A stretch of DNA of 64,000 nt, taken from Candidatus Omnitrophota bacterium. Its GTDB lineage: Bacteria; Omnitrophota; Gorgyraeia; JABMRG01; JAFGKX01. Shown here one piece after another: positions 12,850-33,031 of this stretch (position 1 is the stretch's first letter; each line of letters begins with the position of its first letter). The stretch covers positions 68,071 to 132,070 of the forward strand of contig JAZDPX010000038.1 in assembly GCA_043797125.1 (NCBI GenBank), read 5' to 3'. The notes under the pieces were generated by a model that saw nothing but the letters and a program-made list of their open reading frames with translations, did not search any database and had not been told where the DNA came from. The translations under genes and the position numbers were made by a program.

Positions 12850-12888
12850 CCATAAGTGCTCAAAACGCTAATGGTAGCGGCGAGTGGA
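12850..12888. repeat. 39-bp direct repeat, proximal copy overlapping tRNA-Met 3' end
   Basis: See 12667-12705. 17 nt of the tRNA 3' end plus 22 nt flank are duplicated 183 bp away. Confidence 0.6.
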
Positions 12889-12949
12889 CTTGAACCACTG
12901 ACACCCCGGGTATGAGCCGAGTGCTCTAAACCAACTGAGCTACGCCGCC
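12872..12949 (-). tRNA. tRNA-Met (anticodon CAU; elongator-type, could alternatively be tRNA-Ile2)
   Basis: RC GGCGGCGTAGCTCAGTTGGTTTAGAGCACTCGGCTCATACCCGGGGTGTCAGTGGTTCAAGTCCACTCGCCGCTACCA. Anticodon loop CTCATAC. G1-C72 pair and no GGG/CCC anticodon stem, so not initiator. Confidence 0.8.
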
Positions 12950-13371
12950 TCGAAATTTTCTACAAATTTTTCTGCCTGTTTTATATATTCTTTGTAACCT
13001 CTAATCGCTAAGGCTACTGCCCTATATACCTTTTCGTCATCTATATCCATATATTCGTGGACTAATATATTTCTCATTCCAGCAGAGCCCTTAAGCTTAT
13101 CAGCCAGTTTTCTTGAAATTAAGCCTGCTTCTGCGGCTTTTATAAACGAGATACTATAATCTTCCGGGGGCCTGTTACCGGTTTCAACCACTACGTGATT
13201 ATTTACATCCGTAGCGCATTCAACAATTAACTGGATAAGCCGCTCCGTAGAAGATTTCAGATAAAAATCTTTTTTGTACTCTTTTAAGCTTTTTTTAGAA
13301 ATGGGTTTCAATTTCTCGAGATACATATTTAAGCGCGACAACTTTCTTCTTATAAGGTCTATGTCTATCAT
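12940..13371 (-). CDS. hepT: HEPN-domain toxin HepT (DUF86)
   Basis: 143 aa. Rx4HxY motif (MRNILVHEY) near C-terminus. Immediately downstream of the cognate nucleotidyltransferase. Last 3 codons overlap the tRNA-Met 5' end. Confidence 0.7.
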   Translation of the reverse strand: MIDIDLIRRKLSRLNMYLEKLKPISKKSLKEYKKDFYLKSSTERLIQLIVECATDVNNHVVVETGNRPPEDYSISFIKAAEAGLISRKLADKLKGSAGMRNILVHEYMDIDDEKVYRAVALAIRGYKEYIKQAEKFVENFEAA

Positions 13372-13867: not shown

Positions 13868-13899
13868 AGCAAAAAGTAGGGGCGCCATTTATGGCGCCC
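13868..13899 (-). terminator. rho-independent terminator of the giant-protein operon
   Basis: Perfect GC stem GGGCGCCAT..ATGGCGCCC (13880-13899) followed on the minus strand by CTACTTTTTGC. Confidence 0.55.
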
Positions 13900-13952
13900 A
13901 AAAATAGCCGAGGGACACTTTACAAGTTTAGGTCTGAACCGTCCCCTATTTT

Positions 13953-16451
13953 TTACGCGCAAGCTCCTATGCTGTCTACGTATTTTATATCAGGAGCCTT
14001 AAGCGCTGCGTCATCAAAGTCCGTGACTATCGGATTGCCCGACTTTGGCTGATTGCCGTTTGCGTAAAATGGGCCAATCTGCTTTTTTTGCGCGAACGGG
14101 CTGTCTTCTAGTTTCACCTCTCTGCTTTTTTCTCCGGCGATGTTAAAAACAACCCTTTCATGAACAAAACTCTTTTCCATATAGAAAAATTTTCCATCTT
14201 CGCTGAATTCAAAGGACGTAACATTGCCAAAAATCCCCCTGAACATTTTTGGCAAGCCGGCATTTTTCATGTCAAGCAAAGTCACCTGCGGAATCATGTT
14301 CGTATAAGATTTAAAAGCTAAAAATCGCCTATCAGGGCTTATTTTATAATCGCTAATAAGATCGAATGTTTGCGCGACCTCGCCTGTTTCAAGATTACGA
14401 ACTATGAGCTGGTTATTCAAATTTATTATGCTCAAAAATTTGCTGTCAAATGTTGTGAAAAAACCGTTTGTGGCATCAATATTTTTTAATATATGCTTTT
14501 TGGGTCTTCTAGAGGCAAGATTATTTGCAAATAGCTGATTATGGTAATCCGTAGTTATTAAATAATTGGCACTGGTCAGCGCCCATTGATCGTGGGTTTT
14601 AAGCTCGGCTATATGCTTATTGCTGGGGTTTTCCAGGTCGTAAACATATAATAACGGAAACGGGCCCATTGACTTTACGGCAAATTGGGCGTCTTCGCTG
14701 AATACTAAATCATGGCAAAAATCATACTCTGTTTTAATTAACAGACCGTATTCCGAATCCAATATATACGCATAACTGTTCGCTAAAATGTTGTTTTTAG
14801 GCAGTATCGCGATGTGCCCCGCCTTGCTCGTTACTATTTTTCCGATATAGTCGCGGGTTATGCCGAGATATTCAAGCGCATAATCAGGGATATCTTCGAT
14901 GGTGATTTTCGGGATTTTGGCAGCTTTATCAGCTTTTTTGAATTCAACCCATCTTTTATTTATAAGGTCATATGCCCTTTTAACGCCTTTTTTATCTGTA
15001 AAATAGCATCTTTTGCTGGTAGGCCCGAATTCAAAACCGCCCGCTGCGTTTATTAAATCCTCTATAGGAGCGCTTGGATTTGAAACATCATATAAGGACG
15101 CTGTACCGTGGTTATCTCTTAAAGCGATATATTTGCAATCGGGGCTGAATTTTACCCCGCCAAAGGCATTTTTATTTTTTAACACAATCTCATCATTTGG
15201 GTTAAAGATAGATGTCAATCCGAAAAAAGTGGTTACAATGCTAAATTTGTTAGGGCCTTTCTCATAATAGCTTATGTCGGACGCATTTATGCCAAGTTTT
15301 TGCGCAAAGCATATCTTTGCCGTTATATTATCGTCTGGAACAAGAATTTCTTTCTCCGGCACAAGAAGAAAAGTCTTTTCGACGCCGTCCACGCCCGTAA
15401 CATATATCTCGGCTGAGTTATCGCTGAATTTAAAACCGCCTTGTGCGTCCTGGTTTTTAATTATACGCTTGCCTGTTTCAAGATTACATATCGTAATTTC
15501 AGAGTGCCTGTTCATTAAGAGAATAAATTTATTATCAGGGCTGTATTCAATATGCCAGGCAATGCCCTTGGTGTTGTCTTTTATTATTACCTCTCCTGTT
15601 TGCGCATCGATAACCTTAAGCCTGAAAAATCTGTCTTTTTTAACAATATATTTTAAATCAGGGCTAAGGCTGAAATGGCTGGCATCACCCCATTCCGCCT
15701 TTCTTGCAAGTGCTACGGTGCTGCCATTTAATGTTAACAAATACAAAAATTGTTTATCAGTCATCGCGTCTTTGGCAATAACAGCAGCGTTGTCCTTGTT
15801 AATAGTAATCTTGATATCCTTATCTTTGTCTATATCAAAATACTTAAGCGCAAGCAGCCTGATATTTCCTTCGTTGATTTTGTAATTATGAACATTAGTT
15901 TTTAGTTTTACAAATTCCAACCTATCGCCTGCAACAAGCCTTAGAGTCAGCTCTTTACCGTCTAGATCCGTAGCTTGAATTGTTTTATCGGAATTAAACT
16001 TAAAACCGTTCGCAGCATCGATGCCGCTTTTTAAGAGTTTTACATCCTCTTTACTATAAAAAATGGCCATGGTATCCCATGGAGGTGAGGTTACTTCTCT
16101 TTCAGCCAATTTCCATAAAGCCGCATTCCAATAAAAATCTATAATTGCCGCATAATTTCCGTCCGGGCTTAACTCAATTGCGCGGCAAGGATTCCCATCC
16201 TCGCTTTTTACAATAACGTTACCATGTGAATTTAATATTGTTCCTATGCCGAATTCATCTATTACAGCCTTGTAGCCCAAAGAGTTTATTTTTATGCCAT
16301 CAATCACCTCATTATCCTTGGTTACAGCAAGGCTTTGCGCTCTTAAGGCAGATTCGCTGACGTTTTGCTGGGGCAGACCGTAAGAAACATTTGTCGCTAA
16401 AAAGAAAAATATAATAAAAATCGTTATTATTTTTCTCATGTTTACGCCCAT
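13953..16451 (-). CDS. secreted PD40/TolB-like beta-propeller repeat protein (832 aa)
   Basis: Signal peptide. Repeated (F/Y/L)SPD(G/C/N/R)(K/N)(Y/F)(I/L) blades (SPDGNYAAI, YSPDNKFILL, FSPDCKYIAL, ISPDRRFLAF). Post-signal SALRAQSL. C-terminal FYANGNQPKSGNP motif. Confidence 0.7.
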   Translation of the reverse strand: MGVNMRKIITIFIIFFFLATNVSYGLPQQNVSESALRAQSLAVTKDNEVIDGIKINSLGYKAVIDEFGIGTILNSHGNVIVKSEDGNPCRAIELSPDGNYAAIIDFYWNAALWKLAEREVTSPPWDTMAIFYSKEDVKLLKSGIDAANGFKFNSDKTIQATDLDGKELTLRLVAGDRLEFVKLKTNVHNYKINEGNIRLLALKYFDIDKDKDIKITINKDNAAVIAKDAMTDKQFLYLLTLNGSTVALARKAEWGDASHFSLSPDLKYIVKKDRFFRLKVIDAQTGEVIIKDNTKGIAWHIEYSPDNKFILLMNRHSEITICNLETGKRIIKNQDAQGGFKFSDNSAEIYVTGVDGVEKTFLLVPEKEILVPDDNITAKICFAQKLGINASDISYYEKGPNKFSIVTTFFGLTSIFNPNDEIVLKNKNAFGGVKFSPDCKYIALRDNHGTASLYDVSNPSAPIEDLINAAGGFEFGPTSKRCYFTDKKGVKRAYDLINKRWVEFKKADKAAKIPKITIEDIPDYALEYLGITRDYIGKIVTSKAGHIAILPKNNILANSYAYILDSEYGLLIKTEYDFCHDLVFSEDAQFAVKSMGPFPLLYVYDLENPSNKHIAELKTHDQWALTSANYLITTDYHNQLFANNLASRRPKKHILKNIDATNGFFTTFDSKFLSIINLNNQLIVRNLETGEVAQTFDLISDYKISPDRRFLAFKSYTNMIPQVTLLDMKNAGLPKMFRGIFGNVTSFEFSEDGKFFYMEKSFVHERVVFNIAGEKSREVKLEDSPFAQKKQIGPFYANGNQPKSGNPIVTDFDDAALKAPDIKYVDSIGACA

Positions 16452-19400
16452 TTAATCGCTTCTTCCATCAGCCTCTTAAATTCTTCCGTATCTTTAACCT
16501 TGTCAGCTTCTATTGCAGGCAACGGTAAAAATTGAATTCCTGCGCGCAAATCTGTTTCTATTGAACCTACGCTGATGGGTAGGTTACCAAACAGGTCGTG
16601 GACATTAAAAAGCTGGCCTTCTTCCCTGACAGTTGGTATAAAGAAACGAACCTGCTTCGCATTAGCTAACTTGGACAGGGTATTTTTCGTTGTTTCATCG
16701 ATTTTATCAGCCGGCATAGGATTTAAAAACATAAGCAATAAAGAGCGTTCTGAAACGGATTTTTCAGTTTCGTAGAAATGCGCGGCAACCATCAAATCAT
16801 ATAATTTTTGTGATGCCTCGGCGGGTTTTTCTATTTGTGAAACTCCTTCCAACCGTGTTGTAAAAAGATTGGGTATGTTCATCCTGTCTATTATATCTAT
16901 CTTTTTATCTATAATCCTTTCCTCTGTCAGGGCATCTTTAAAATCCTTTGGCATTATATCTTTAGGCAAGGCGCTGTCAACAGCAACAACAAACCTGAAC
17001 AAAGACGTTTGCGAATTCTCAAGCTTTAAGCCCTTAACACTCTCGGCAAATTCCTTTAACCCGGGATTTAACAAGGCGTATGTATCAGGCATTGTTATAA
17101 CTATCTGATTTTTGAAATCAAAACGCATATCCTTCAGAGCCCGCATTATGTCAATAGGCGTTTCCGGCTTAAGCTTTGCTGAAATATTCATAGCTTGCGA
17201 TAACGCCTCTTTTAGTTTGTTCTCCGAATCTTTTCCTCCCGGCAAAGGCTCATCCTCATCCGTCTTCGGGTTTCCGCTGGCGTAGTGGACATATCCTTTT
17301 TGTGGCGCTTCAGTCACTTCGCCGGTATTTATATCAAGTATCCTTAGCGGCATTTCTACGCCGTCGGAGGTTTTACCAGCAAGGATTGTAACTTTTAGTT
17401 TATCGGGGTCATAGGCGGTATGAGAAGGTATTGGTATTTTGCTTTTTACAGGGTTACCCGGATTTTTATCGAGATGATAAAGGTCAAAATGCGTGGCCAT
17501 TAGAGGGGGCTTTTCGCTGGATCTAAACACAATCAGCTGATTTTTTGGCGTCAGCCAATAACAAACATCGTTGCCGTAGGCAATGCCTAAAGATACAGGC
17601 TCTTGTCCGGGATTTCTTAAATCACATACACGCAAAGGTTTGTCAAATTTAAGCCTGTTCGCGCCATTTGTCCACACGATGAAGCTTCCGTCGTCGCTAA
17701 TCTTCAAATTGGATATGCTTCCGTTGACGCATCCGCTTTCCGAATATGTAATTCTTTTAATTACTTTATAATCCGAATCATATACGATTATCGGATGTAA
17801 TATCCCCTTTTTTGTATACAGGACTATTGTTTTATTGTTCTTGCTTACAGCTAGGTTAATATTTGCTTTAGGTATGCCTTTGAAGTCTTGTATAAATACG
17901 CATGCTGGCATTTTATCAAACATCTGTTCTTTTGCATCATTCAGCGCGTTGCCGTTGGCGTAATTGGGTTGGGTGCCAACTTCAGCATTTCCGATGAGGT
18001 CTATAATCGTAGTTTCCCCGCTTGCATCAACAGCTTGAACCTGGGTGTCGTTATTTATAAAACTAATTCCTCTCGTCGCGTCTAAGTTTTCTTTTATTGG
18101 GTTATCCGGGTCTGCAATTCTATAAACAGATGCTGTATTATCTTTGTTCAGTATAATTAAATATTTCTCATCACTACTGACTTCGCTTGATAATTTTTCT
18201 TTCTTATGTTTATCCAATATTATTTGCAACCTGCGCCCAAAACTCAATGGCAGGTTGCCTTCTCCTTTATCCGTATCCGCATTGCCGTTGGCGTAGTGGG
18301 ACTGGTTTGAGGCAGAGGTATTGTTTAATTTAGTTAGGTCTACATCTGTTCTTTGTCTGTTGTATACATAGGTTAAGGTGTTTTTAGATTCAAAAGAAAA
18401 GCATTCCGTATCATGTGTAAATATCGGTTCGGATGGGTTTGGGCTTTTCATATCATATACTCTGCATCCTATATGATTATAATCCAGATTGTAATCTATC
18501 TCATACGCTATAGCAAAATATCTTTTATTGTGCTTGTTGAAAATAATATTTTTTGATTTTCCTTGAATTTGAGCTACTTCACTCTTAAGTTCTGTATCAT
18601 ATATAACTGTTACGCCTCTGGCAACACCATCTTTTTCCGGAATAAATGCCCAGAGATATTCAGCTTCGGGGCTGAAACCAAAGCAGGTTGCGCCTTGAAA
18701 CACTTTAATAGGTTTTTCTGCATGTGTCTTGTCAGAAAGATCGAGCAAAATCACCCTTCGTTTCTTGGGATCCTTGCTGTCTAACCAAACAGCAAGATAT
18801 CTGTTATTGCTGCTTTTCTCATAACCAGAATGATGTTCAATCTTCATTTTTGAAATTGGCTTATTTGGTTGTTTTAGGTTATACAAAGATATCGTAATTG
18901 TTGTAATTCCCATAAAAACAAGGGCAATATTATTACCTTCTAACGGCATGATGTAATCGTCGCGGCCAATTGGTTTATTTAATATAAGTTCCTCTTGTGG
19001 ATTAAAAACAAATGCCTTATATCCCCAGAAGGTATGGGTAACCAAAACAACTCTGTACCCTTCTTCATTTACTATATCGTTTCCATCTTTATCTGTTAAA
19101 ATAATATCTTTTACAAATACATTATGTTCACCAAGCAGAGAGAGCATCTTTGCTGTGACATTTTTTGGGGTGACAGAAAGGCTAAGGTTCTCTTCACCAC
19201 GCGTTGTTTTTATTGTTAAGCTTCTACTATCAGGCGCAAAAGCGCAGTCTTTTATTTCATTATTCTCTCTATCGCCTTCAGGAATCTGGTATGTCGCTAT
19301 AGGCTCATTTGGTTTTTTGTCCCATAAATCATAAATCTCTGCTGAGAACTCATTATTTATAGCTAGAACAAATCTGTAATTGTTGCTTATTTCTACGCCG

Positions 19401-22400
19401 CAAGCGGTATCTATATCCTTGATTTTAATTTTTTCCGTATACAAATTTATTATATCAGTTAGCGATAGAGCATTTCCTTTAGCGTCGACGAATTCTCTGT
19501 CTGCGACTAAATGTGCGCCATCCGGCGTAACCCGATATCCCTCATTAGCGTTTATACCCGTCATTACAGGTTCTGCTGGGTCTGTAGAGTCTATATTATA
19601 CACGGTCAGCATCATGTCTTTATCTCTAACTATTAACCGGTTGCTTTTAGTCAGCAGTCCGTCTATGATGTCATCTGTTTTTATGCCGAAAGATTCTAAT
19701 TTTTTAAATACTGCATTTTCTTTATCCGTATCCGCATTGCCGTTGGTGTATTGGACTTCGCGTGACTCTGAAGAGGGAACTTCTTGGTGCTTATTTGTTA
19801 ATGTAGAAAGGTTGATTTTTTCTACCTTGCCATTGATTTCGCAGCTAAATGTGTCCTTTGACTTAAAAGCACAATTTATGGCTGATGCGGCAAATATCGG
19901 CTCATAGGGCTTGTCGCCTTTCAAATCATATACCAATTTATTAGGAGTGCCGCCATATTCTGCCCAAATATATCTCTCTTCTTTGTCGTATGGGTTATAA
20001 TGAATTATCTGTAGGTTCTTAGGAATTACTACACGGGTGTTATCGCGCAAATTATAAATAGTTGTGCTCGTTTGGGTCCATTGGGGATATGTACTTCGCA
20101 ATCCGAGATAATTTGCTTTAGGGCTGAAATAAAAATTGTTGGCTTTTTCAAAAGTTACAATTGGGTACTTTACAGAATCTCCTTCCTTGTGCAAATCAAG
20201 CACTGAAACTGTGCCGCGCTTTTCAAAGGCAATATACCTGTCGTCAAAAGTTTGCTCAAAATCATACAGGCCTGTTAGTTTGATTTTAAAAACAGACTTT
20301 TTAAGGTTCTTGAGGTTATATAACAACAGGTTGCAGTTATCCCCTATGGTCGGTGTCAGGAAAGCAATATTATTGCCTTCAGCAGGCAAAAGGCAGGTAT
20401 TTTTATATACCTTCTTGCGCATAATGAGGTTGTCTTGCGGATCAAAGACGTATGCCCAGCTCGAATTGGAAAACGCTACTTTGTAACCCGCATTGTTCGT
20501 TTTGATTTTCCTGCTTAAATCAATTATAGGAAAATCCTCTGCCCTAAGAGAATATTCCTTAAGCTGTAATAGCATTTTAACTGTTAAGTATTTTGGGCAC
20601 ACAGGCAAAGCAAGAGTATCCTTCCTTTTGCCTATCTTTATAGAAAATTCTCTGCTGTCATTACTGAAGCCAAAATCGCTTACTATTGGGTCGGCTTTAC
20701 TGTTTAGGCTTAACTGGAGATTGTAAACCTTTATCGGCTTGTCAGGCGTATCGCTAAGCAAATCATATAGCTCAACGCACCAGGGGCTTGGTTTAGCTGC
20801 GAAAAACTGGCTATTCTTGCTAATTTTTTCGCCGCAAGCTGTGCTTATGCCTTCAATTACTTTTTCGCCTGTTAATACATTCACTATAGTAACTATATTA
20901 TTAAAAGCTACATAGGGCGGATCAGCTTCAGCGACAACATGCAAAGAATCCGGGGTAAGCCAAAATTTGCTGTTGGCATTTATATTTATTGCAATCGGCT
21001 TATTGGGTTTTTTAGCTTTTAAATTATAGATAGAAATCTGTCCGTTCCCACCCCTCACTACGAGCCTGTCTGAGTTGGTCAATTTCCAGTCCTCTGCTTT
21101 AATGTTCTCAAAAGTTAGCTCATCTAACTCAAGCGAGGCATTAAGATCGAATATTTTTAGCTTAGATGCGGCGTCAGGGTCAAGCGTATTCTTTTCTTGC
21201 CAGGCGGCGTAATTATTTGTAATCTGCAGGCTGTCTTTCAAGTACCCATACGATCTATGAAGCATAGGATAACTATTGTGTAAATAGGGCCCTAAAATAT
21301 ATAAAGTGAAAGATCTGTTTTTCTGCTTTGTAATTATTATGGCTTGTTTTTTATCATTAAGGAATATAGTCTTTATAATCTCTTTTTTCTCTATGCCTTT
21401 TGCCGCTAAATCGAGTTTCTTAAATGTATTTTCATCCGTAGGCGCATTGTCGTTGGCGTAAGGGCTTTTGCGAATATTGATAGTTTTGTTAGTTTCTGTT
21501 ATCTCAAAAAACTCCGCGTTTATCAACAATATTATTTCTTTTACCTGTTTCTGAAGCTCTTTATTTCCTATAAGATTTGGCACGCACTGGCCTATTAATG
21601 TAAGCCTGTGCTCCTGATCGGAAAAACTATCTTTATCGTTTATATGATTAAAGAACTCTTCTATAACGAGCTCTGCCTTTTTATTGTCCTGCCTCAAAAC
21701 CTCTCTTGTGCTGGCATAAAGCAGGTTATACCATAACAATATGGCGGAGTTAATTAAAGAGTAGCGCGCGCCTGTCTGGCCTACCTGCGCGTGGTCAGAA
21801 ACGGTAATCTGATATTTTATTTTAAATTCTGCGCCATCTTGCGCCTTCAGAGCCAAGTGCCCGCCTTTTTTCCCTTGCCAATTCAGCTCATGCATAGCCA
21901 TAAAATACGCCAGGCCGCGGGCAACGCTTAAGTTTCTTGTCGTGCCATCGCCGAATTTCACCGTAAGCACGACGTCGTTTTTCAATATGTCGCTGTAATT
22001 ATTTACAAAATCCTTATGCACGCGAAAGGCAAACTTTTCTGTATCGTTTTTTTCGTTGTATTCATCCTTGCCTTGCGGCAGCAGCAGGACGGCAATGTTT
22101 ATCCTGTCCTCTGCGCCTATGTATTTATCGCTTCCTATCTCTACAACTATGTCCTTATCTTTAATAAAGCCGGATTTTCCCAAAGCCCTGTTTATAATGC
22201 TTTCCAGTGAACCGTCATCTAAAGGAATGCCTTTAACAATATTTACTTCTGCGCCGGGAGGCGCAAGAGTGAAATCCTCGATTAATGCTTTGCTTGCGGC
22301 TGTTTGCGACAAGCTTTGCGCTCTTAGCGCTGACGCGCTCGCAAAGTCGTGCGCCAAGGCAATAGAACTATTTGTCGCTAAAAACAAAATAGCAGTGCAT

Positions 22401-22447
22401 AAAGACACTGCTTTCACAAAAATGGTTTTTGCTGTTTTCATCTCCAA
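16442..22447 (-). CDS. giant secreted multi-module beta-propeller repeat protein (2001 aa)
   Basis: Signal peptide plus SALRAQSL. Many (V/I)Y(N/D)L...P..(K/E)PI blade-like repeats and PD40-like FAPDSRSL/FSPEAEYL. Five Y-x-N-G-N-A-x-T-D motifs. Unique ~280-aa C-terminal domain. 10-nt overlap with the downstream 832-aa gene. Confidence 0.7.
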   Translation of the reverse strand: MEMKTAKTIFVKAVSLCTAILFLATNSSIALAHDFASASALRAQSLSQTAASKALIEDFTLAPPGAEVNIVKGIPLDDGSLESIINRALGKSGFIKDKDIVVEIGSDKYIGAEDRINIAVLLLPQGKDEYNEKNDTEKFAFRVHKDFVNNYSDILKNDVVLTVKFGDGTTRNLSVARGLAYFMAMHELNWQGKKGGHLALKAQDGAEFKIKYQITVSDHAQVGQTGARYSLINSAILLWYNLLYASTREVLRQDNKKAELVIEEFFNHINDKDSFSDQEHRLTLIGQCVPNLIGNKELQKQVKEIILLINAEFFEITETNKTINIRKSPYANDNAPTDENTFKKLDLAAKGIEKKEIIKTIFLNDKKQAIIITKQKNRSFTLYILGPYLHNSYPMLHRSYGYLKDSLQITNNYAAWQEKNTLDPDAASKLKIFDLNASLELDELTFENIKAEDWKLTNSDRLVVRGGNGQISIYNLKAKKPNKPIAININANSKFWLTPDSLHVVAEADPPYVAFNNIVTIVNVLTGEKVIEGISTACGEKISKNSQFFAAKPSPWCVELYDLLSDTPDKPIKVYNLQLSLNSKADPIVSDFGFSNDSREFSIKIGKRKDTLALPVCPKYLTVKMLLQLKEYSLRAEDFPIIDLSRKIKTNNAGYKVAFSNSSWAYVFDPQDNLIMRKKVYKNTCLLPAEGNNIAFLTPTIGDNCNLLLYNLKNLKKSVFKIKLTGLYDFEQTFDDRYIAFEKRGTVSVLDLHKEGDSVKYPIVTFEKANNFYFSPKANYLGLRSTYPQWTQTSTTIYNLRDNTRVVIPKNLQIIHYNPYDKEERYIWAEYGGTPNKLVYDLKGDKPYEPIFAASAINCAFKSKDTFSCEINGKVEKINLSTLTNKHQEVPSSESREVQYTNGNADTDKENAVFKKLESFGIKTDDIIDGLLTKSNRLIVRDKDMMLTVYNIDSTDPAEPVMTGINANEGYRVTPDGAHLVADREFVDAKGNALSLTDIINLYTEKIKIKDIDTACGVEISNNYRFVLAINNEFSAEIYDLWDKKPNEPIATYQIPEGDRENNEIKDCAFAPDSRSLTIKTTRGEENLSLSVTPKNVTAKMLSLLGEHNVFVKDIILTDKDGNDIVNEEGYRVVLVTHTFWGYKAFVFNPQEELILNKPIGRDDYIMPLEGNNIALVFMGITTITISLYNLKQPNKPISKMKIEHHSGYEKSSNNRYLAVWLDSKDPKKRRVILLDLSDKTHAEKPIKVFQGATCFGFSPEAEYLWAFIPEKDGVARGVTVIYDTELKSEVAQIQGKSKNIIFNKHNKRYFAIAYEIDYNLDYNHIGCRVYDMKSPNPSEPIFTHDTECFSFESKNTLTYVYNRQRTDVDLTKLNNTSASNQSHYANGNADTDKGEGNLPLSFGRRLQIILDKHKKEKLSSEVSSDEKYLIILNKDNTASVYRIADPDNPIKENLDATRGISFINNDTQVQAVDASGETTIIDLIGNAEVGTQPNYANGNALNDAKEQMFDKMPACVFIQDFKGIPKANINLAVSKNNKTIVLYTKKGILHPIIVYDSDYKVIKRITYSESGCVNGSISNLKISDDGSFIVWTNGANRLKFDKPLRVCDLRNPGQEPVSLGIAYGNDVCYWLTPKNQLIVFRSSEKPPLMATHFDLYHLDKNPGNPVKSKIPIPSHTAYDPDKLKVTILAGKTSDGVEMPLRILDINTGEVTEAPQKGYVHYASGNPKTDEDEPLPGGKDSENKLKEALSQAMNISAKLKPETPIDIMRALKDMRFDFKNQIVITMPDTYALLNPGLKEFAESVKGLKLENSQTSLFRFVVAVDSALPKDIMPKDFKDALTEERIIDKKIDIIDRMNIPNLFTTRLEGVSQIEKPAEASQKLYDLMVAAHFYETEKSVSERSLLLMFLNPMPADKIDETTKNTLSKLANAKQVRFFIPTVREEGQLFNVHDLFGNLPISVGSIETDLRAGIQFLPLPAIEADKVKDTEEFKRLMEEAIKWA

Positions 22448-22552
22448 TTCCCCTATTTAGACTTTTTTAAGATGTTTTTTGTATATTTAAAAAGGTATGA
22501 ATATTATAGCAAAAAAAATGCTTAAGTCAACGGTTTTTTTGAAAAAAGCAGT

Positions 22553-22639
22553 GTCATTCCCATCCCAGCGAAATAGGAATTTTGTCATCCCCGCGAAAGC
22601 GGGGATCCATTTTTTGGATTCCCACTTTCGTGGGAATGA
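22553..22639. repeat. nested hairpin cluster (ATTCCC-N8-GGGAAT type stems) in 5' region of giant gene
   Basis: TGTCATTCCC...GGGAATGACA outer inverted repeat. It encloses perfect hairpins TCCCCGCGAAAGCGGGGA and ATTCCCACTTTCGTGGGAAT. Confidence 0.5.
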
Positions 22640-22648
22640 CAGCTAAAA

Positions 22649-22808
22649 GCAAAGGCCTGTGGCAATTCGAGCAGGGCTTGCGAGGCCGAAGCGGGCATGG
22701 TTCGCCTTTGCTTCTATGTAGGCGAGAGCGAAGGCCGAGGTCAGAGCGAAAAAATCCTCGCAGGGGATTTTTTTGCGTCCCTGCGAGGATTGCCACAGGC
22801 CTTTGCTA
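22649..22808. repeat. 160-bp segment bounded by perfect 18-bp terminal inverted repeats (GCAAAGGCCTGTGGCAAT / ATTGCCACAGGCCTTTGC); MITE-like
   Basis: TIRs at 22649-22666 and 22791-22808. The interior contains the hppA terminator hairpin. Confidence 0.4.
22745..22790 (-). terminator. rho-independent terminator downstream of hppA
   Basis: ATCCTCGCAGGG / CCCTGCGAGGAT 12-bp stem followed on the minus strand by TTTTTTCGC. Confidence 0.55.
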
Positions 22809-22821
22809 ATTAGAATCGTAC

Positions 22822-24918
22822 TTACTTCACGAACGTGTAAGCCACCGTAAATGCCGCGAATGCCACCGAAACCATGGACATAAGCTTCAACAATATATTT
22901 AATGACGGGCCTGACGTATCTTTAAATGGGTCGCCTACAGTGTCACCGACAACAAGCGCTTTGTGCGACGGGCTGCCCTTTCCGCCTAATTCGCCGCCTT
23001 CAACATATTTTTTCGCGTTGTCCCAGCTTCCCCCGGCGTTTGCCATCATAATCGCGAGCACAAAACCGCTGACAAGCGAACCTGTTAAAAGCCCTACAAC
23101 AGCGTCAACACCTAAGAAAATTCCTGTTGCCAAAGGCGCAAGCACAGCAAGCAATGCCGGTAAAATCATTTCTTTCTGCGCCGCTGCCGTAACAATTGTC
23201 ACACACCTTTCGTAATCGGCTTGAGCCTTTCCTTCTAAAAGCCCTTTTATCTCTTTAAATTGCCTTCTTACCTCGATAACAATTTTTGTAGCTGCTTTTC
23301 CGACAGACTTTAGCGTCATGGAGCAGAATACAAAAGGAATTACTCCGCCGAGAAAAAGACCTATTAATAAAAGCGGATTAAGCAAACTCAAATTCGTTTC
23401 TTTGCCAAGCTGGCCTATGCTCTGGTTATAAGCGGCTATTAACGCAAGTGTTGTAAGCGCCGCTGAACCTATCGCGAAGCCTTTGCCTGTCGCTGCCGTT
23501 GTATTGCCAAGAGAATCTAAGGCATCTGTCCTTTTTCTTACTTCAGGCTCTAATTTTGCCATTTCAGCGTTGCCTCCGGCGTTATCAGCAACAGGGCCGT
23601 AGGCATCTGTCGCAAGAGTGATTCCAAGAGTAGAAAGCATGCCTACAGCTGAAATTCCGACGCCAAAAAGCCCTGCATTGTAATTTGCCGCTCCGCCCGC
23701 AATAAAAAACGCTCCGAATATAGCGGCGCACACAGCAACGACAGGTATTGCGGTTGAAAACATACCTGCCGCAAGGCCCGCAATTATTACCGTGGCAGGC
23801 CCTGTTACAGATGCTTCTGAAACTGCTCTTGTCGGGGCATAGTTTGATGATGTGTAATATTCCGACGCGAATGATATAATAAGTCCGCTTACCAGGCCGA
23901 ATGTTATTGCCCAGAATATCCCTATATTTTCCATTCCAAGCATCTTCCAAACAGCGAAAAAGCAGCCGATAACCACTAAAATCGATGCGGTTATTACGCC
24001 GCGCCTTAATGCCTTAAGAAGCTGGGCTTGAGTTGCCTCTTCTTTTACTTTTACAAAAAATGTCCCGATTACAGAACAAATGGTTCCTATAGCAGCGATA
24101 ACAAGCGGCAGCAAAATACCTTTTATGCCAAAGCCTGCCATTGCGCCAAGCGCAATGGCAGCTACTATTGAGCCGAGATACGATTCAAAAAGATCAGCCC
24201 CCATTCCCGCGACATCCCCGACATTGTCGCCGACATTATCAGCTATGACAGCCGGGTTTCTCGGGTCATCCTCCGGTATGTTGCTCTCTACTTTGCCGAC
24301 TAAGTCTGCGCCGACATCAGCTGCTTTTGTAAATATGCCTCCGCCAACTCTTGCGAAAAGCGCCATGGAACTTGCGCCCATGCCGAATAAAAGCATGTTG
24401 CTCGCTATTATAAGCGGCTCATCATAACCGGCCGGTATCGGGTTAACAGAATAATACCATTTAAGCAGAATATATCCGCAGGTTAAAAATAAAAGCCCTA
24501 CTCCGACCACGGTCAAACCCATAACAGCTCCCGATGAAAACGCTATTTGCAACCCGCCGTTTAAGTTCTTGCGGCACGCGTTTGCCGTGCGCGCGCTCGA
24601 TGCTGTGGCCATCTTCATTCCGATATAACCTGTCAGCGCTGAAAAAAATCCGCCGATTACAAAAGCAAAAGGCACAAATATCGGGAGCAGATTTTTAAAA
24701 GAAAGCGATAAAAATACAATAAAACCGATTACAAAAAATATACTGACTATTAAATACTGCCTCTTAAGAAACGCGTTGGCGCCTTTTCTTACGGCCGCCG
24801 CTATCTCCTTCATTCTTTCCGTGCCCTCATCCTTGCGAAGCACGTTAACAGCTAAATATACGGAAAATAAAAGCGTAAAAATCGAAACAGCGATCAAAAT
24901 ATACGGAATGCTAACCAT
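22822..24918 (-). CDS. hppA: membrane-bound proton/sodium-translocating pyrophosphatase
   Basis: 698 aa, multi-[21 protein letters not shown] and DNVGDNVGD signature motifs. Confidence 0.9.
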
Positions 24919-24954: not shown

Positions 24955-26049
24955 TTATATCAATGATAACAATTTGTCAATCTCTATGTGTTTGCGCGCG
25001 AGGCGCAGGATTATATCTATCTTATCCTTGTCCTGCGGCCGTATCTTGACGATCATGCTGTCTATTCTTTTCACGGCCTCATAGGTGCTTTGCTCAACAA
25101 CTATCGCGGGTATCTGGTTGCGCTCAAGCGCCTTTCTAAGCGAATATCCTGGGGAAATCCCGCAGGTAAACACAAAGCCGCACAATAAATCGGTTACTTT
25201 TGCGCGGCGCCTTGATTCGTTAAGCAAATATTTTATAAGCTCGTCCCTGTCGCCTGAAACAACCACAAGAAGTTTTTCATTAAAGCTTCGCAGCGTAACC
25301 TGGGGCCTTGCCGTGGCAACCACAATGTGGTTGATTATTTTATTTATGTTTGTTTTACTTCCGCTTATAAACTTTGCTTTAAATTCATCCTGCATATGCG
25401 CCATGGTAGGCATATCCAGTATCCTGAGATACGGCATAACGCCAAGCACATCGAGCGAGTGCTGTTTTAGGCTTTCCCGCACGAGTTCGTTCACCTTTTC
25501 GTATTTATCAGCCTTTACCTTGTTTATTATTACGCCGGCAATTTCAACGCCCTTTGATTTAAAAAGCGGAACCGAAAGCATAATCTCGTCAATAGGCCTG
25601 CCGATACCGCCTTCCGAAATTATAACCACTTTGGCGCCGAGCATGCTGGCTACATCGGCGTTGCACATATCAAACACAGAGCCTACCCCCGCGTGGCCTG
25701 TGCCTTCAATTACAACCATATCATTATCCTGAGCTATTTTTTCAAACGAATCCATAATCTGTTTTTGCAAAGGCCTTCTATCGGGATTTTTAATATATTT
25801 GCGCGTAAAATCTTTTTCTATCGCTATTGGGCTCATGTCCTTTAAACTTGCCTTTATGCCGAAAATTTCCTCTATAAGATAGGAATCTTCGTCGATATTA
25901 TAGCCCTGCTCTACTAAATAACGCTGGCCTATGGGTTTTATAAAACCTATTTTTTCAAAACGTTCTTTGAAAGCTGCCATAAGGCCCAGGGAAACTGTGG
26001 TCTTTCCGTCGTTTTGCCTTGTTGCAGCTATAAATACTTTTTTAGCCAT
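24955..26049 (-). CDS. stand-alone phosphotransacetylase N-terminal-like protein (BioD-like P-loop + DRTGG domain)
   Basis: NDGKTTVSLGLMAAF...IGFIKPIGQ resembles E. coli Pta N-terminus (TSVGLTSVSLG...FKPIAQ). MVVIEGTGHAG, GVIINKV, DRTGG-like LLVVVSGDRDELI. No catalytic Pta domain. Confidence 0.6.
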   Translation of the reverse strand: MAKKVFIAATRQNDGKTTVSLGLMAAFKERFEKIGFIKPIGQRYLVEQGYNIDEDSYLIEEIFGIKASLKDMSPIAIEKDFTRKYIKNPDRRPLQKQIMDSFEKIAQDNDMVVIEGTGHAGVGSVFDMCNADVASMLGAKVVIISEGGIGRPIDEIMLSVPLFKSKGVEIAGVIINKVKADKYEKVNELVRESLKQHSLDVLGVMPYLRILDMPTMAHMQDEFKAKFISGSKTNINKIINHIVVATARPQVTLRSFNEKLLVVVSGDRDELIKYLLNESRRRAKVTDLLCGFVFTCGISPGYSLRKALERNQIPAIVVEQSTYEAVKRIDSMIVKIRPQDKDKIDIILRLARKHIEIDKLLSLI

Positions 26050-26866
26050 TGAGTTTTCCCGCTCTAAAAGCCTTGATATAGTTCATGCAATAAGAATCTT
26101 CGCCGAGAAGGGCCTTTTGCGCTATTTTGAAAATTTCATCGGCAAGCGCGTGCTTTTTTATCACTTTATTAGTGAGTTCCTCTGTAGGATCTATTATCGC
26201 CGCGTCTATGCCCGCTTCTATCGCCAAAGATAAAAACGCCGCGTTTAATACACGCCTCTGGGGCAGGCCGTATGAGACATTGCTCAAGCCCCCTATTGTC
26301 TTTATGCCGTCTTTTTTAAGCGCCCTGACTGTTTTTAAAAATTCATTGGCCTGGTCAGGCTCGCTGCTAATCGGTTTTACCAAAGGGTCTATGTATATAT
26401 TATCAGGGGTTATCCCGGCATTTTTTAATGAATCTACCAGGCGCCTGGCAATTCTAAGGCGCTCTGAAGAATTATGCGGCATGCCTTTATCATCCATTGT
26501 GAGCGCGACAACAAAACAATCAATATTTTTTAATATCGAAGAGATATGTTTAAACTTATCGCTCTCAGCTGTTATTGAATTAATAAAGGGTTTACCCTTG
26601 TGAACCTTCAGCGCCCGGGAAATGACCTGCGCGTCAGGGCTGTCTATGCTTATCGGCATGCCAAGTTTTGACTGCAAAAGCTCCATTAACCAGATCAGGT
26701 CTTCGGATTCTTTTTCTAACCTTACCGCGCAATTTATATCTATAAAATCTGCTCCGGACTTAATCTGAGATGAAGCTTCATTGATTAAAAAGGATGAGTC
26801 TCTAGTAGATATGGCTTGCGCGATGGGCTTTCTTGAGCTGTTTATTCTTTCCCCGATTATGAGCAT
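26042..26866 (-). CDS. acsE: 5-methyltetrahydrofolate:corrinoid/iron-sulfur protein methyltransferase (AcsE/MtrH pterin-binding family)
   Basis: MLIIGERIN N-terminus, YIDPL, GLSNVSYG, DAAIID. Closely resembles the Moorella AcsE sequence as I recall it. Confidence 0.75.
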   Translation of the reverse strand: MLIIGERINSSRKPIAQAISTRDSSFLINEASSQIKSGADFIDINCAVRLEKESEDLIWLMELLQSKLGMPISIDSPDAQVISRALKVHKGKPFINSITAESDKFKHISSILKNIDCFVVALTMDDKGMPHNSSERLRIARRLVDSLKNAGITPDNIYIDPLVKPISSEPDQANEFLKTVRALKKDGIKTIGGLSNVSYGLPQRRVLNAAFLSLAIEAGIDAAIIDPTEELTNKVIKKHALADEIFKIAQKALLGEDSYCMNYIKAFRAGKLNG

Positions 26867-28626: not shown

Positions 28627-30099
28627 CTATATTATTTCAAGAAATTTATCTACAAGCTTAGGATCAAATTCTTTGCCGCTGCCCTTCTTAAACTCGTCTT
28701 TAATGGACTCTTTGCTTAAGCTTTTTCTGTATGGGCGGTCTGTTGACATGGCATCATAGGCATCTACCATTTTCAATATCTTCGCTGTCAGGGGTATCTC
28801 TTCGCCTTTTAACCCGTCAGGGTATCCTGTGCCGTCCCACCACTCCTGGTGATATCTCACCATGTCGCACAGGGGGCTAAGTTTTCTTATCGGGCGCATT
28901 ATGTTCTCGCCTATTATAACGTGTTTTTGGAGCTCTTGTTCTTCTTCCTGCGTAAGCTTATCCTTTTTGCCTAAGATTTCATCTCTTACGCCTATCTTGC
29001 CTAAATCATGGAGCTTGGCGCCGTCTTTTAAAACTTCTATGGTCTTGTCGCTTAAGCCTAAGTGCTTGCTGAAATTAATCACCAATCTTGAAACTCTATC
29101 TAGGTGCCCGCGGCTGTACGGGTCCTTGGCTTCAACAGCAACTGCCAGGGCTGTTATTGTTTCTATATATGTCTTTTCTGCGTCTTCATTAAGGTTTGCG
29201 TTAGCAATAGCAACAGCGGCCTGAGATGCTATGTTTGTTATAAGCAGCTTATCGTCCTCGTTAAAATTTGAAGATCTTTTCTTATTAAAAATCGCCATCA
29301 CTCCCAGACAATCCTCTCTGTAGAGCAAAGGCACGGATATTATGGTTTTGTAGTGAAAGCGCGATTCATCATTTTCATCTATGCTTGGCACGCCGGTATA
29401 GGAAGAGATAATTGTTCTTTTTTCCTTAGCTGAAAGGCCGATTATTCCCTCCCCAAGCTTTTCAGATATCTTTTTAGCTGCCTTTTCATCAATGCCGTAA
29501 TACACGCTTGCCTGCAATTTTTCGCCTTTATCGTCCAAAAGCAATATGCAGCCGTTTTCGCCAAATACACCTTTGGTGGTCATTTCTATTATAAGCCCGA
29601 GAAGCTGGTCAATGCCCTCTGACGATGAAATGGCGGCTCCGGTCTTTGTAAAAATATCCTGTATAATATTTTTAGATTCTTCAAGCTCCTTAATCTTTTC
29701 TTCCAAATCTGAGGTAATTTTGTTAAATGACTTTGCAAGCTGGCCTATTTCGTCTGTGTCCGGGCCATCTACATATATCTTCTTTTTGTAATTTCCCTTA
29801 GCTATCTCTTTGCCGATCTCGGCAATGCGCGAAACAGCGCTGATGTTGCGCCTTAAAAAATAAAACATCAGGCCCATTAAACAGACGATCAGCGCTACTG
29901 TCACTCTTATGTACGGGAGTTTTTCCCAAAGTATATCATAACCCACAACTTTCAGGATATACATCAAAAGCATTAGAGGTATAAGCGACATGAAGAAAAA
30001 GGAGATGGCCAATTTACGGACCAGGCTCTCCTCATGTATTGAAGACAGCCTCATTTTAGACTTTTTAGTTTTTTTCATAGTATTAAAGCCCTGCCGCAT
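28627..30099 (-). CDS. HD-GYP c-di-GMP phosphodiesterase with N-terminal TM/HAMP and GAF-like sensor
   Basis: Two TM segments, HAMP-like coiled coil, central sensory domain. C-terminal HDLGKIGV ... HQEWWDGTGYPDGL (HD-GYP). Confidence 0.8.
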   Translation of the reverse strand: MRQGFNTMKKTKKSKMRLSSIHEESLVRKLAISFFFMSLIPLMLLMYILKVVGYDILWEKLPYIRVTVALIVCLMGLMFYFLRRNISAVSRIAEIGKEIAKGNYKKKIYVDGPDTDEIGQLAKSFNKITSDLEEKIKELEESKNIIQDIFTKTGAAISSSEGIDQLLGLIIEMTTKGVFGENGCILLLDDKGEKLQASVYYGIDEKAAKKISEKLGEGIIGLSAKEKRTIISSYTGVPSIDENDESRFHYKTIISVPLLYREDCLGVMAIFNKKRSSNFNEDDKLLITNIASQAAVAIANANLNEDAEKTYIETITALAVAVEAKDPYSRGHLDRVSRLVINFSKHLGLSDKTIEVLKDGAKLHDLGKIGVRDEILGKKDKLTQEEEQELQKHVIIGENIMRPIRKLSPLCDMVRYHQEWWDGTGYPDGLKGEEIPLTAKILKMVDAYDAMSTDRPYRKSLSKESIKDEFKKGSGKEFDPKLVDKFLEII

Positions 30100-30955: not shown

Positions 30956-31605
30956 TTTTTCTCCAGGCTGATTTTTTTCGGGCTTAATCTTTTTTCATTA
31001 TCGCGCGGGTTTTGAGTATTTTTCATTTTTGAAAGCTCTTTGAGCGAATCGAGGCGTTCGTATATTTGAATCCACACGCAATCTATGTCTTTGCTTACTT
31101 CGCATTTTTTATCTTTAACGCCGCCGCAAGGCCCGTTCAGCAGCCCTTTTGGGCACAATGTAACCGGGCACAAGCCGCCTGTTTCATCCAGCACGCATTC
31201 CGCGCATAAAGAGCATTTCTGCACAAAACGTCCGTCGGACTGAACCTCGCCCAAAAATAATGTATCAAGACCGGGGTGCACTCTTTTGCCTTTTGTGCCT
31301 TCCACTATTGTCTGCGTGCCGTCTCCGCAAGTCAGGGCGAGTATCGCGTCTGATTTCTGTATCTGGGCCTTAAACTGCTGGTTCATCTTTTTTGCCTTTA
31401 CCAGATGGCAAGGCGGATCAAGCACAAAAGTGCCTGTTATAATTTTACCGTGTTTTGCAAGGAAGGCCTTCATTGCAAGGACTTCTTCCTCGCCGCCGGT
31501 TTTACACACAGTAGAACACTGCGCGCAGCCGGCTATGAATATCTTTTTGTCGCATTTAAGATACTCCAGTATTATGTCTTTATCTTTTTGTTTTGTAATT
31601 ATCAT
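30952..31605 (-). CDS. metV: MTHFR C-terminal-domain zinc/FeS protein (MetV), partner of MetF in acetogen-type reductases
   Basis: Cys-rich. CPKGLLNGPCGG hallmark motif. 4-nt overlap with metF. Confidence 0.75.
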   Translation of the reverse strand: MIITKQKDKDIILEYLKCDKKIFIAGCAQCSTVCKTGGEEEVLAMKAFLAKHGKIITGTFVLDPPCHLVKAKKMNQQFKAQIQKSDAILALTCGDGTQTIVEGTKGKRVHPGLDTLFLGEVQSDGRFVQKCSLCAECVLDETGGLCPVTLCPKGLLNGPCGGVKDKKCEVSKDIDCVWIQIYERLDSLKELSKMKNTQNPRDNEKRLSPKKISLEKK

Positions 31606-32971: not shown

Positions 32972-33031
32972 ATTTTAAATTTTTAATTTTGAATTGCAAT
33001 TTTGAATTTTGCATTTTTAATTTTTAATTTT

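What the first reader, a model, noticed from the sequence alone, without database searches (positions are those of the whole stretch)
13953..22447. Two-gene operon of giant secreted PD40 beta-propeller proteins (832 aa + 2001 aa) next to a tRNA/TA locus
Two overlapping minus-strand ORFs (10-nt overlap) totalling 8.5 kb encode proteins with signal peptides and dozens of propeller-blade repeats. The operon has its own strong terminator (13880-13899) and a highly structured 375-bp upstream region (22447-22822). The N-terminal ~300 aa and C-terminal ~280 aa of the 2001-aa protein look nothing like the repeats and nothing I recognise, so they may be functional 'cargo' domains. This is the candidate for an undescribed surface/secreted system in the window.
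Basis: partly seen in the sequence, partly recalled or inferred. Interest (0 to 1): 0.75.

Follow-up and report, generated by a model that had tools for sequence, protein, structure and literature searches.

The report
Orphan exported beta-propeller protein pair
Two adjacent genes of an uncultured Omnitrophota bacterium encode large exported proteins made of strings of WD40-like beta-propeller blades, plus two end domains that match nothing known. The genes are real, but they have no relatives and no partner genes, so this is lineage-specific "dark matter" and not a demonstrable new system.

Summary
ORFs 16442-22447 (B, 2001 aa) and 13953-16451 (A, 832 aa) lie head to tail on the minus strand. 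They have their own strong promoter and terminator and sit between H+-PPase and an MNT/HepT + tRNA-Met locus in a housekeeping region of a Candidatus Omnitrophota MAG. Each protein has one N-terminal Sec-type hydrophobic segment. The repeats are beta-propeller blades, but Pfam gives no PD40 match. A has only mostly sub-threshold WD40-type matches, and B has none. An AF2 model of one B module (pLDDT 75) shows about 9 four-stranded blades, and every fold-search hit is a propeller (best: eIF2A/eIF3b, 9 blades). B reads as signal peptide, N-domain (~300 aa), two ~480-570 aa propeller modules (34% identical), two short blade modules, and a C-domain (280 aa). A conserved Y-A-N-G-N-A-x-T-D motif marks every boundary. 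The two end domains contain no blades and hit nothing in Pfam, NCBIfam, PDB, PHROGs or PADLOC. Neither protein has homologues beyond one weak blade-only relative, and no homologous operon or partner gene was found. Most likely they are lineage-specific extracytoplasmic binding scaffolds or adhesins. A "cargo" role for the end domains remains untested, because the single-sequence AF2 model of the C-domain failed.

The parts
22503..22530 (-). Promoter of the B-A unit: TTGACT, 16-nt spacer, TATAAT with an extended-10 TG (11 of 12 consensus positions)
   Evidence: sequence
16442..22447 (-). Gene B, 2001 aa counted from TTG 22447. The likely real start is ATG 22441 (1999 aa, NCBI 'hypothetical protein V2A72_07280').
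22352..22447 (-). B residues 1-32: Sec-type signal peptide (MKTAK..., hydrophobic core, ...SIALA|HD). It is followed by the SALRAQSL motif shared with A.
   Evidence: sequence inspection; no dedicated predictor was run
21461..22351 (-). B N-terminal domain (residues ~33-329): no blades, no hit in any family or structure library, fold unknown
19751..21460 (-). B module 1 (residues 330-899): starts with linker YANDNAPTD, then a helix and WD40-like blades. It is 34% identical to module 2 over ~450 aa.
18296..19750 (-). B module 2 (residues 900-1384): starts with linker YTNGNADTD. AF2 model pLDDT 75, about 36 strands (about 9 four-stranded blades) plus two helices. All fold-search hits are beta-propellers.
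17963..18295 (-). B module 3 (residues 1385-1495): starts with linker YANGNADTD; a short blade-bearing module (~2 blades)
17285..17962 (-). B module 4 (residues 1496-1721): starts with linker YANGNALND, ~4-5 blades. Modules 3 and 4 together (B 1410-1619) are related to A 422-615.
16445..17284 (-). B C-terminal domain (residues 1722-2001): starts with linker YASGNPKTD, has no blades and no hit anywhere. The alternating hydrophobic-strand/helix pattern suggests an alpha/beta fold, but the AF2 model is unusable (pLDDT 36).
13953..16451 (-). Gene A, 832 aa from ATG 16451 (NCBI: 828 aa from ATG 16439, 'WD40 repeat domain-containing protein'). It has a signal peptide, the SALRAQSL motif, ~11 detectable blades (residues 89-775), a YANGN motif at residue 796 and a 32-aa tail.
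13880..13899 (-). Intrinsic terminator after A (GGGCGCC-ATAA-ATGGCGCCC followed by a T-run)
22552..22807 (-). Highly structured spacer between PPase and B's promoter. A 160-nt element bounded by 29-nt inverted repeats encloses the PPase terminator hairpin (22753-22791), and a nested palindrome follows at 22552-22641. It is probably not part of the B-A transcript.

Best explanation
A and B are a co-transcribed pair of paralogous, Sec-exported, soluble multi-propeller proteins specific to one poorly sampled Omnitrophota lineage.

B is a chain of domains: an unknown N-domain, then two ~9-bladed WD40-like propeller modules, then two short blade modules that together could form another propeller, then an unknown alpha/beta-looking C-domain. 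The domains are joined by flexible linkers that carry a conserved Y-A-N-G-N-A-x-T-D motif. A is a shorter all-propeller version that ends in the same motif.

The most likely role is as extracytoplasmic (periplasmic or surface/secreted) binding platforms. The propeller faces would bind proteins or glycans of the envelope or of a partner or prey cell, and the two end domains would give anchoring or an accessory activity.

Shown: the gene structure, the promoter and terminator, the signal-peptide-like N-termini, the blade repeats and module duplication, the linker motif, and the absence of relatives.

Inferred: export itself, the location after export, the binding function, and any role of the end domains.
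For: - Gene structure and regulatory signals.
- One N-terminal hydrophobic segment in each protein; no lipobox, LPxTG, PEP or other TM segment.
- A and B share their N-terminus (41% identity over 44 aa) and their blade modules (E 7e-9 and 1e-7).
- B module 1 versus module 2 is 34% identical, E down to 1e-33.
- Blade HMM finds about 32 units confined to A 89-775 and B 410-1668.
- AF2 of module 2: pLDDT 75, about 36 strands.
- Foldseek: 1147 PDB matches at E<=0.001, and all 50 top-ranked hits listed are propeller-containing chains, with eIF2A and eIF3b (nine-bladed) on top.
- Weak but uniformly propeller-type sequence hits. NCBI's own name for A is 'WD40 repeat domain-containing protein'.
- Linker motif occurs 6 times against 0.025 expected, always at a module border.
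- No catalytic motifs (GxSxG, HExxH, MIDAS, P-loop).
- Codon usage is like the rest of the window and the neighbours are housekeeping genes, so this is resident chromosomal DNA and not a mobile element.
- Large repeat-rich exported proteins, including WD-repeat scaffolds, are typical of Omnitrophota and have been proposed to mediate prey or host adhesion: bioRxiv 10.64898/2026.06.07.730766 and 10.1101/2023.11.21.568195.
Against: - There is no direct evidence of export, location or any ligand.
- No anchoring or secretion partner is nearby.
- The two end domains (~580 aa in total) are completely uncharacterised and could carry the real activity.
- With no orthologues, conservation and co-occurrence cannot be used. 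The adhesin reading rests largely on analogy with other Omnitrophota proteins.
Confidence: 0.5

Rival explanations
1. Propeller-gated hydrolase. As in S9 prolyl oligopeptidases, DPP4, or Tricorn and trilobed proteases, the propellers would filter substrates for a catalytic alpha/beta domain. Here that would be B's 280-aa C-domain or its N-domain.
Against: There is no Pfam hit of any kind in the C- or N-domain even at E<=10. There is no PDB sequence hit. No GxSxG, HExxH or other catalytic motif occurs anywhere in A or B. WD40-type eukaryotic propellers score just as well as the peptidase propellers.
Confidence: 0.1
2. Polyprotein. B is exported as a precursor and cut, by itself or by a protease, at the conserved YANGN-A-x-T-D junctions. 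This would release separate propeller modules and the two end domains as independent products.
For: The motif is strongly non-random (6 observed against 0.025 expected). It occurs only at module borders and also near A's C-terminus, ahead of a 32-aa tail. It lies in segments that AF2 leaves disordered (pLDDT<50 at both ends of module 2). Asn-Gly is chemically labile (general knowledge).
Against: No known autoprocessing motif matches; this is from memory only, by comparison with NPTH, GDPH, intein HN and SEA G|S. No protease gene is adjacent. A conserved linker can equally be a hinge, a capping strand or a docking element.
Confidence: 0.1
3. TolB/PD40-type periplasmic proteins.
For: SPDG/TPDG-like blade starts occur in some blades. 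The only distant relative, P0004, lies next to a tolB-tolQRA cluster, although it is convergent to it.
Against: PF07676 (PD40) and TolB_N are not detected at E<=1 in A or B, nor at E<=10 in B's segments. There are no tol-pal neighbours here. Size and architecture are unlike TolB.
Confidence: 0.04
4. Non-functional or mis-assembled ORFs.
For: There are no homologues, and the proteins are singletons in their clusters.
Against: Uninterrupted ORFs of 6.0 and 2.5 kb in ~39% GC DNA are not expected by chance. The other evidence is an ancient internal duplication that keeps its blade motifs, host-like codon usage, a consensus promoter and terminator, and no DNA-level tandem repeats that might suggest an assembly artefact.
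Confidence: 0.02

Closest known systems
Bacterial WD40-repeat / WD40-like beta-propeller proteins (NCBI product name 'WD40 repeat domain-containing protein')
   Same: The blades are four-stranded with an FSPDG-like first strand and a 'hYDL' third strand where WD40 has 'WD'. A gets sub-threshold Pfam hits to WD40-type propeller models. The fold matches are WD40-type propellers.
   Different: Canonical PF00400 is not detected. The blades carry their own signature, hYD/NLxxxxPxxPI, shared only with one metagenomic protein, P0004. The blades are grouped into ~480-aa modules separated by YANGN linkers and flanked by two unknown domains.
Nine-bladed propellers of eIF2A and eIF3b (PDB 3wj9, 4nox, 4u1f)
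   Different: Sequence identity is 8-11% and TM scores are only ~0.3. These are eukaryotic cytosolic translation factors. The resemblance is in fold class and possibly blade number, not in homology or function.
TolB / PD40 repeat proteins
   Same: Both are exported beta-propellers, and some blades have SPDG-like motifs.
   Different: There is no PD40 or TolB_N profile match and no tol-pal context, and the protein is 5 times larger.
S9 peptidases (DPP4, PREPL, acylaminoacyl peptidase) and Tricorn/trilobed proteases
   Different: There is no catalytic-domain profile hit and no Ser nucleophile elbow.
Omnitrophota giant proteins (Archaeovorin/dockerin type, tandem-repeat scaffolds including WD-repeat giants)
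   Same: Same phylum; signal peptide; repeat-scaffold architecture; largely sequence-unique (80% of clusters are singletons); proposed adhesion role.
   Different: This protein is 2,001 aa against 10,000 aa or more. It has no dockerin, TSP3 or C39 domains, no type II secretion neighbourhood, and no detectable homology.

Membership tests
PD40 / TolB-like beta-propeller | Repeated matches to Pfam PF07676 (PD40) | tested here: not met
   No PF07676 hit at E<=1 for A or B, nor at E<=10 for B's five segments.
PD40 / TolB-like beta-propeller | TolB N-terminal domain and tol-pal gene neighbourhood | tested here: not met
   No TolB_N hit. The neighbours are H+-PPase, MNT/HepT, tRNA-Met, PilZ, TilS and FtsH.
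Beta-propeller fold (WD40-like superfamily) | Tandem four-stranded antiparallel blades | tested here: met
Beta-propeller fold (WD40-like superfamily) | Closed ring with a defined blade number | tested here: inconclusive
Canonical WD40 repeat (PF00400) | Profile match at or above the Pfam gathering score | tested here: not met
   PF00400 is not listed. A's WD40-type hits are below their cut-offs (THOC3 42.8 bits against 305; EML_2 31.8 against 90). The exception is RMC1_N, which just reaches its cut-off (27.5 against 27.3). B has no hit at all.
S9 / Tricorn-type propeller peptidases | Catalytic alpha/beta-hydrolase (or Tricorn C1/C2) domain with a GxSxG nucleophile | tested here: not met
   No Pfam hit in the C- or N-domain at E<=10. 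No GxSxG anywhere. No PDB sequence hit.
Omnitrophota giant adhesin-like proteins (Archaeovorin / dockerin type) | Length of 10 kaa or more; dockerin, TSP3 or C39 domains; T2SS-like neighbourhood | tested here: not met
   2,001 aa, none of these Pfam domains, housekeeping neighbours.
Sec-exported protein | N-terminal signal peptide with n-, h- and c-regions and an AxA-type cleavage site | tested here: met
   MKTAK, then a hydrophobic core, then SIALA|HD in B. MRK, then IITIFIIFFFLA, then TNVSYG|LP in A. This is the only hydrophobic window in each protein. The test is by inspection only; no SignalP-type tool was available.
Mobile or defence island next to a tRNA | Integrase or mobility genes, foreign composition, homologues on plasmids or phages, defence-system profiles | tested here: not met
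   Codon usage is host-like and GC is only slightly lower (0.39 against ~0.43). There are no plasmid or phage matches, no meaningful PADLOC or PHROG hits, and no integrase among the ten flanking ORFs scanned.

The most novel reading that the evidence does not exclude
B would be a new kind of exported modular effector array. The conserved Y-A-N-G-N-A-x-T-D junctions would be processing or docking sites, and the propeller modules would present or deliver two novel-fold end domains (N ~300 aa, C ~280 aa) that act on a host or prey cell of this Omnitrophota lineage. A would be the co-expressed partner that shares the same N-terminal sorting tag (SALRAQSL) and the same C-terminal motif.
Probability: 0.1. 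Interest if true: 0.6.

Novelty: new variant of a known kind. Interest (0 to 1): 0.3.

Why it matters
If the reading is right, this adds one more lineage-specific, exported repeat scaffold to a phylum already known for such proteins, which is modest news.

What could matter more is the roughly 580 aa of terminal sequence with no detectable relative, and the junction motif. If they proved to be effector domains and a processing or sorting signal, they would give a handle on how small, possibly host-dependent Omnitrophota interact with other cells.

For now, no comparative or experimental evidence is available, so the locus is best treated as a well-delimited piece of protein dark matter.

Tried and rejected
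1. Homologue searches.
- Whole B and whole A against 5.8e9 clusters returned only themselves, plus one weak WD40 protein for A.
- B 802-2001 against 1.84e9 representatives with full HMMER returned only itself and P0004 at E 5.7e-5.
- The N-domain search returned nothing, not even the protein itself, so that null result is weak. B residues 1-801 never got a full HMMER scan.

2. Family libraries. Pfam, NCBIfam, PADLOC and PHROGs on the whole proteins and on five B segments gave nothing usable.

3. PDB sequence searches. The N-domain, C-domain, A and the module profile gave only weak propeller hits.

4. Structure prediction.
- AF2 of the C-domain from a single sequence gave pLDDT 36 and was discarded; no fold search was run on it.
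I considered a spliced N+C construct but did not submit it, because it is not a sequence of the window.
- The afdb50 fold library was unavailable.

5. Synteny. Anchoring on H+-PPase in GTDB genomes and in metagenomes, the nearest relatives have only 59-69% identical PPase. None has A/B-like genes within 10 kb. A six-frame blade-HMM scan of all 161 loci hit only A, B and P0004.

6. Source contig. A look-up by exact protein found nothing on record.

7. Mobile origin. Plasmid and phage tblastn gave no match.

8. Rejected readings.
- Riboswitch or leader RNA upstream: no Rfam hit, and the structure lies upstream of the promoter.
- Recent tandem amplification: no DNA tandem repeats.
- Lipoprotein, LPxTG or PEP-CTERM anchoring: no such motifs.
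- EF-hand, dockerin or TSP3 reading of the linker: the residue spacing does not fit (by inspection, from memory).
Full report
**1. What is in the sequence**

Two long minus-strand ORFs occupy 13953-16451 (A, 832 aa, ATG) and 16442-22447 (B, 2001 aa, TTG) (translations). Both exist as NCBI models from a "Candidatus Omnitrophota bacterium" MAG on a 138-kb contig:
- B is "hypothetical protein V2A72_07280", 1999 aa, so it starts at ATG 22441.
- A is "WD40 repeat domain-containing protein", 828 aa, so it starts at ATG 16439.

With the longer A start the genes overlap by 10 nt. With NCBI's start they are 2 nt apart. Either way they are tightly coupled.

A near-consensus extended-10 promoter lies at 22530-22503 (TTGACT, 16-nt spacer, TGnTATAAT) upstream of B. 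A GC-rich hairpin with a T-run at 13899-13880 follows A. A perfect TTGACA-16-TATAAT also lies inside B at 16980-16953, so A could additionally be transcribed on its own.

**2. Context**

The window is core chromosome with every gene on the minus strand:
- Downstream of A: FtsH, TilS, a PilZ protein, tRNA-Met, and a HepT/MNT toxin-antitoxin pair.
- Upstream of B: H+-pyrophosphatase, a DRTGG/AAA_26 protein, pantothenate genes, an HD-GYP-like regulator, and the methyl-branch folate enzymes.

There is no secretion, pilus, anchoring, protease or mobility gene among the flanking ORFs scanned. Codon usage of A and B is indistinguishable from the rest of the window, and GC is only slightly lower (0.39 against ~0.43). 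No plasmid or phage carries anything similar.

The 374-nt spacer upstream of B is indeed unusually structured (-139 kcal/mol, z = -8.5). The structure consists of two parts:
- a 160-nt element bounded by 29-nt inverted repeats, which encloses the PPase terminator hairpin;
- a second nested palindrome.

Both lie upstream of B's -35 box, and there is no Rfam match. I read it as the PPase 3' end plus a palindromic element, not as a leader of B.

**3. Anatomy of the proteins**

Each protein has a single hydrophobic segment at its N-terminus, with a plausible signal-peptidase I site (SIALA|HD in B, NVSYG|LP in A). Neither has a lipobox, LPxTG, PEP-CTERM or any further TM segment. The two N-termini are 41% identical over 44 aa, including "FLATN" and, just after the cleavage site, "SALRAQSL".

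Self-comparison divides B as follows:

| Part of B | Residues | Note |
|---|---|---|
| N-domain | ~33-329 | no blades |
| Module 1 | 330-899 | 34% identical to module 2 over ~450 aa, E down to 1e-33 |
| Module 2 | 900-1384 | modelled with AF2 |
| Module 3 | 1385-1495 | short |
| Module 4 | 1496-1721 | short; modules 3+4 (B 1410-1619) related to A 422-615 |
| C-domain | 1722-2001 | no blades |

Every boundary carries the motif Y-[AT]-[NS]-[GD]-N-(A/P)-x-(T/N)-D, at B residues 330, 900, 1385, 1496 and 1722. A has one copy at residue 796, followed by a 32-aa tail. That is six copies against 0.025 expected in residue shuffles.

A is related to B's modules (E 7e-9 and 1e-7) and is itself internally repeated.

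An HMM iterated from the recurrent "h-Y-D/N-L-x(2-8)-P-x-x-P-I" unit finds about 11 blades in A (89-775) and about 21 in B (410-1668). It finds none in B 31-313 or B 1669-2001. There is no DNA-level tandem repetition, so the duplications are old.

**4. Are the repeats PD40 propeller blades?**

They are propeller blades, but they are not detectably PD40.
- Pfam gives no PD40 hit. For A it gives only WD40-type propeller models, and all but RMC1_N (27.5 bits against a 27.3 cut-off) fall below their cut-offs: THOC3 E 4e-11, EML_2 1e-7, RMC1_N 3.5e-6. For B it gives nothing, whole or in segments.
- A profile of the modules and A itself touch only propeller proteins in the PDB, and weakly: WDR5, COP1, DPP4, Apaf-1, with E around 0.01.
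- An AF2 model of module 2 was built on a six-row pseudo-alignment of the internal repeats, A segments and P0004. It reached pLDDT 75 and pTM 0.56. It shows a helix and 12 strands, then a low-confidence stretch, then a second helix and about 22-24 strands. That is about 9 four-stranded blades.
- Foldseek gives 1147 PDB matches at E<=0.001, and all 50 top-ranked hits listed are propeller-containing chains. The nine-bladed eIF2A and eIF3b come first.

Global scores are modest (TM 0.2-0.37; about 230 of 486 residues aligned). The fold class is therefore secure, but ring closure and the exact blade number are not.

**5. The end domains**

This was the interesting part of the finding, and it stays unresolved.
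- Neither domain contains blades.
- Neither hits anything in Pfam at E<=10. The whole-protein scans of B against NCBIfam, PADLOC and PHROGs also gave nothing usable: the only hit, PADLOC HerA at E 0.033 over B 248-325, is not credible.
- Neither hits PDB sequences meaningfully: the N-domain's single match is at E 0.14, and the C-domain has none.
- No simple catalytic or metal-site motif is present.
- The C-domain was included in a full HMMER scan of 1.84e9 representative proteins and found nothing.
- The N-domain was only searched with the word-indexed tool, which oddly did not return even the parent protein. That null result is weak.
- Single-sequence AF2 of the C-domain failed (pLDDT 36). 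I ignore it apart from noting that the prediction is a helix/strand mixture and not all-beta.

**6. Relatives and partners**

There are essentially none. Beyond themselves:
- A finds one weak generic WD40 protein (P0003, E 1.4e-4).
- B finds one 647-aa metagenomic protein (P0004, E 5.7e-5 in the library search; 1e-10 pairwise). P0004 shares the same blade signature (…VYDLxSxNPNEPI…). Once an upstream frameshifted ORF is included it has its own signal peptide. It sits convergent to a tolB-tolQRA cluster on an unrelated contig.

Anchoring on the neighbouring H+-PPase, the closest genomes and metagenome contigs are only 59-69% identical, so this lineage is thinly sampled. None carries A/B-like genes within 10 kb. 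The "orphan" status is therefore partly a sampling effect. It also means that co-occurrence, conservation and presence/absence arguments cannot be made.

**7. Interpretation**

The best-supported reading (confidence 0.5) is a pair of paralogous, co-expressed, Sec-exported multi-propeller proteins that serve as extracytoplasmic binding scaffolds or adhesins. This is in line with the abundance of signal-peptide-bearing, sequence-unique repeat scaffolds (including WD-repeat ones) in Omnitrophota, and with the adhesion role proposed for them.

The rivals are:
- A propeller-gated hydrolase (0.1). The propeller-then-C-terminal-domain layout and the propeller similarity argue for it. The absence of any catalytic signature argues against it.
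- A polyprotein cut at the YANGN junctions (0.1). The motif is striking, but no known processing motif matches it.
- The original TolB/PD40 idea (0.04).
- An artefact (0.02).

I could not establish export, location, ligand, processing, or the nature of the end domains.

**8. Novelty and score**

The propeller portion is a divergent member of a very well known fold class. What has no described counterpart is the arrangement: modules of about 9 blades separated by a conserved junction motif, a shared post-signal-peptide tag, and two unassignable end domains. I therefore rate it as a new variant of a known kind.

Lineage-specific exported repeat proteins are commonplace in this phylum. There is no partner gene or homologous operon to justify calling it a "system", and nothing here makes an open question testable. 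Interest: 0.3.

The most novel reading still allowed is a modular effector array with processing or docking junctions and novel-fold cargo domains. It has perhaps a 10% chance and would merit about 0.6.

Noticed in passing
window 22552-22807 (-): The spacer between the H+-PPase stop and B's promoter folds far better than shuffles (z = -8.5). A 160-nt element bounded by 29-nt inverted repeats (22648-22676 / 22779-22807) encloses the PPase terminator hairpin, and a second nested palindrome (22552-22641) follows. It is unique in the window and has no Rfam family. It may be a MITE/REP-like insertion or a compound terminator.
   Followed up: partly
window 47003-47098 and 13936-13946: A 37-nt, 97% complementary inverted repeat (47003-47039 / 47062-47098) shares the 11-mer GGGGACGGTTC with the spot immediately after A's stop codon. 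That is 3 copies in the window against 0.23 expected. It may be a short REP-like intergenic element.
   Followed up: partly
window 16953-16980 (-): A perfect sigma-70 consensus (TTGACA, 16-nt spacer, TATAAT; 12 of 12) lies inside B's C-domain coding region, about 500 nt upstream of A's start. It could be an internal promoter for A.
   Followed up: no
window 12872-13371 (-): The 3' end of the HepT toxin ORF (stop at 12940-12942) overlaps the 5' end of tRNA-Met (12872-12949) by about 10 nt. The MNT/HepT pair sits directly between A's terminator and the tRNA.
   Followed up: no
window 15219-15329 (-) (A residues 375-411) and equivalent positions in B (residues ~341, 623, 912, 1099): Each sub-module begins with a short helix plus an 'L-G-I-x-x-x-D-I' element. 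The copy in A (ITAKICFAQKLGINASDISYYEKGPNKF) resembles an Xre/HipB helix-turn-helix (NCBIfam E 0.11 only). In the AF2 model the equivalent segments are single helices (module-2 residues 6-20 and 195-205).
   Followed up: partly
L081 749-3027 (+): P0004, the only distant relative, appears to be split by a frameshift. An upstream 124-aa ORF carries a signal peptide and the same TPNKPI blade motif. The gene is convergent to a tolB-tolA-tolR-tolQ cluster in a JGI metagenome contig (sample 3300018080).
   Followed up: partly
window 30083-34654 (-): There is a contiguous set of folate / Wood-Ljungdahl methyl-branch genes: MTHFR with its C-terminal partner, FolD, an FTCD_C cyclodeaminase-like protein, and formate-THF ligase. 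A pterin-binding/CdhD-like protein lies at 26042-26866. This is metabolic context for this Omnitrophota lineage.
   Followed up: no
window 36555-36665: A 52-nt AT-rich imperfect inverted repeat (83% complementary) lies in the intergenic region upstream of the EPSP-synthase-family gene.
   Followed up: no
tool behaviour: The word-indexed homologue search with B's N-domain (residues 31-336) returned no hit at E<=1, not even the parent protein P0001. The negative result for the N-domain should not be over-weighted.
   Followed up: no
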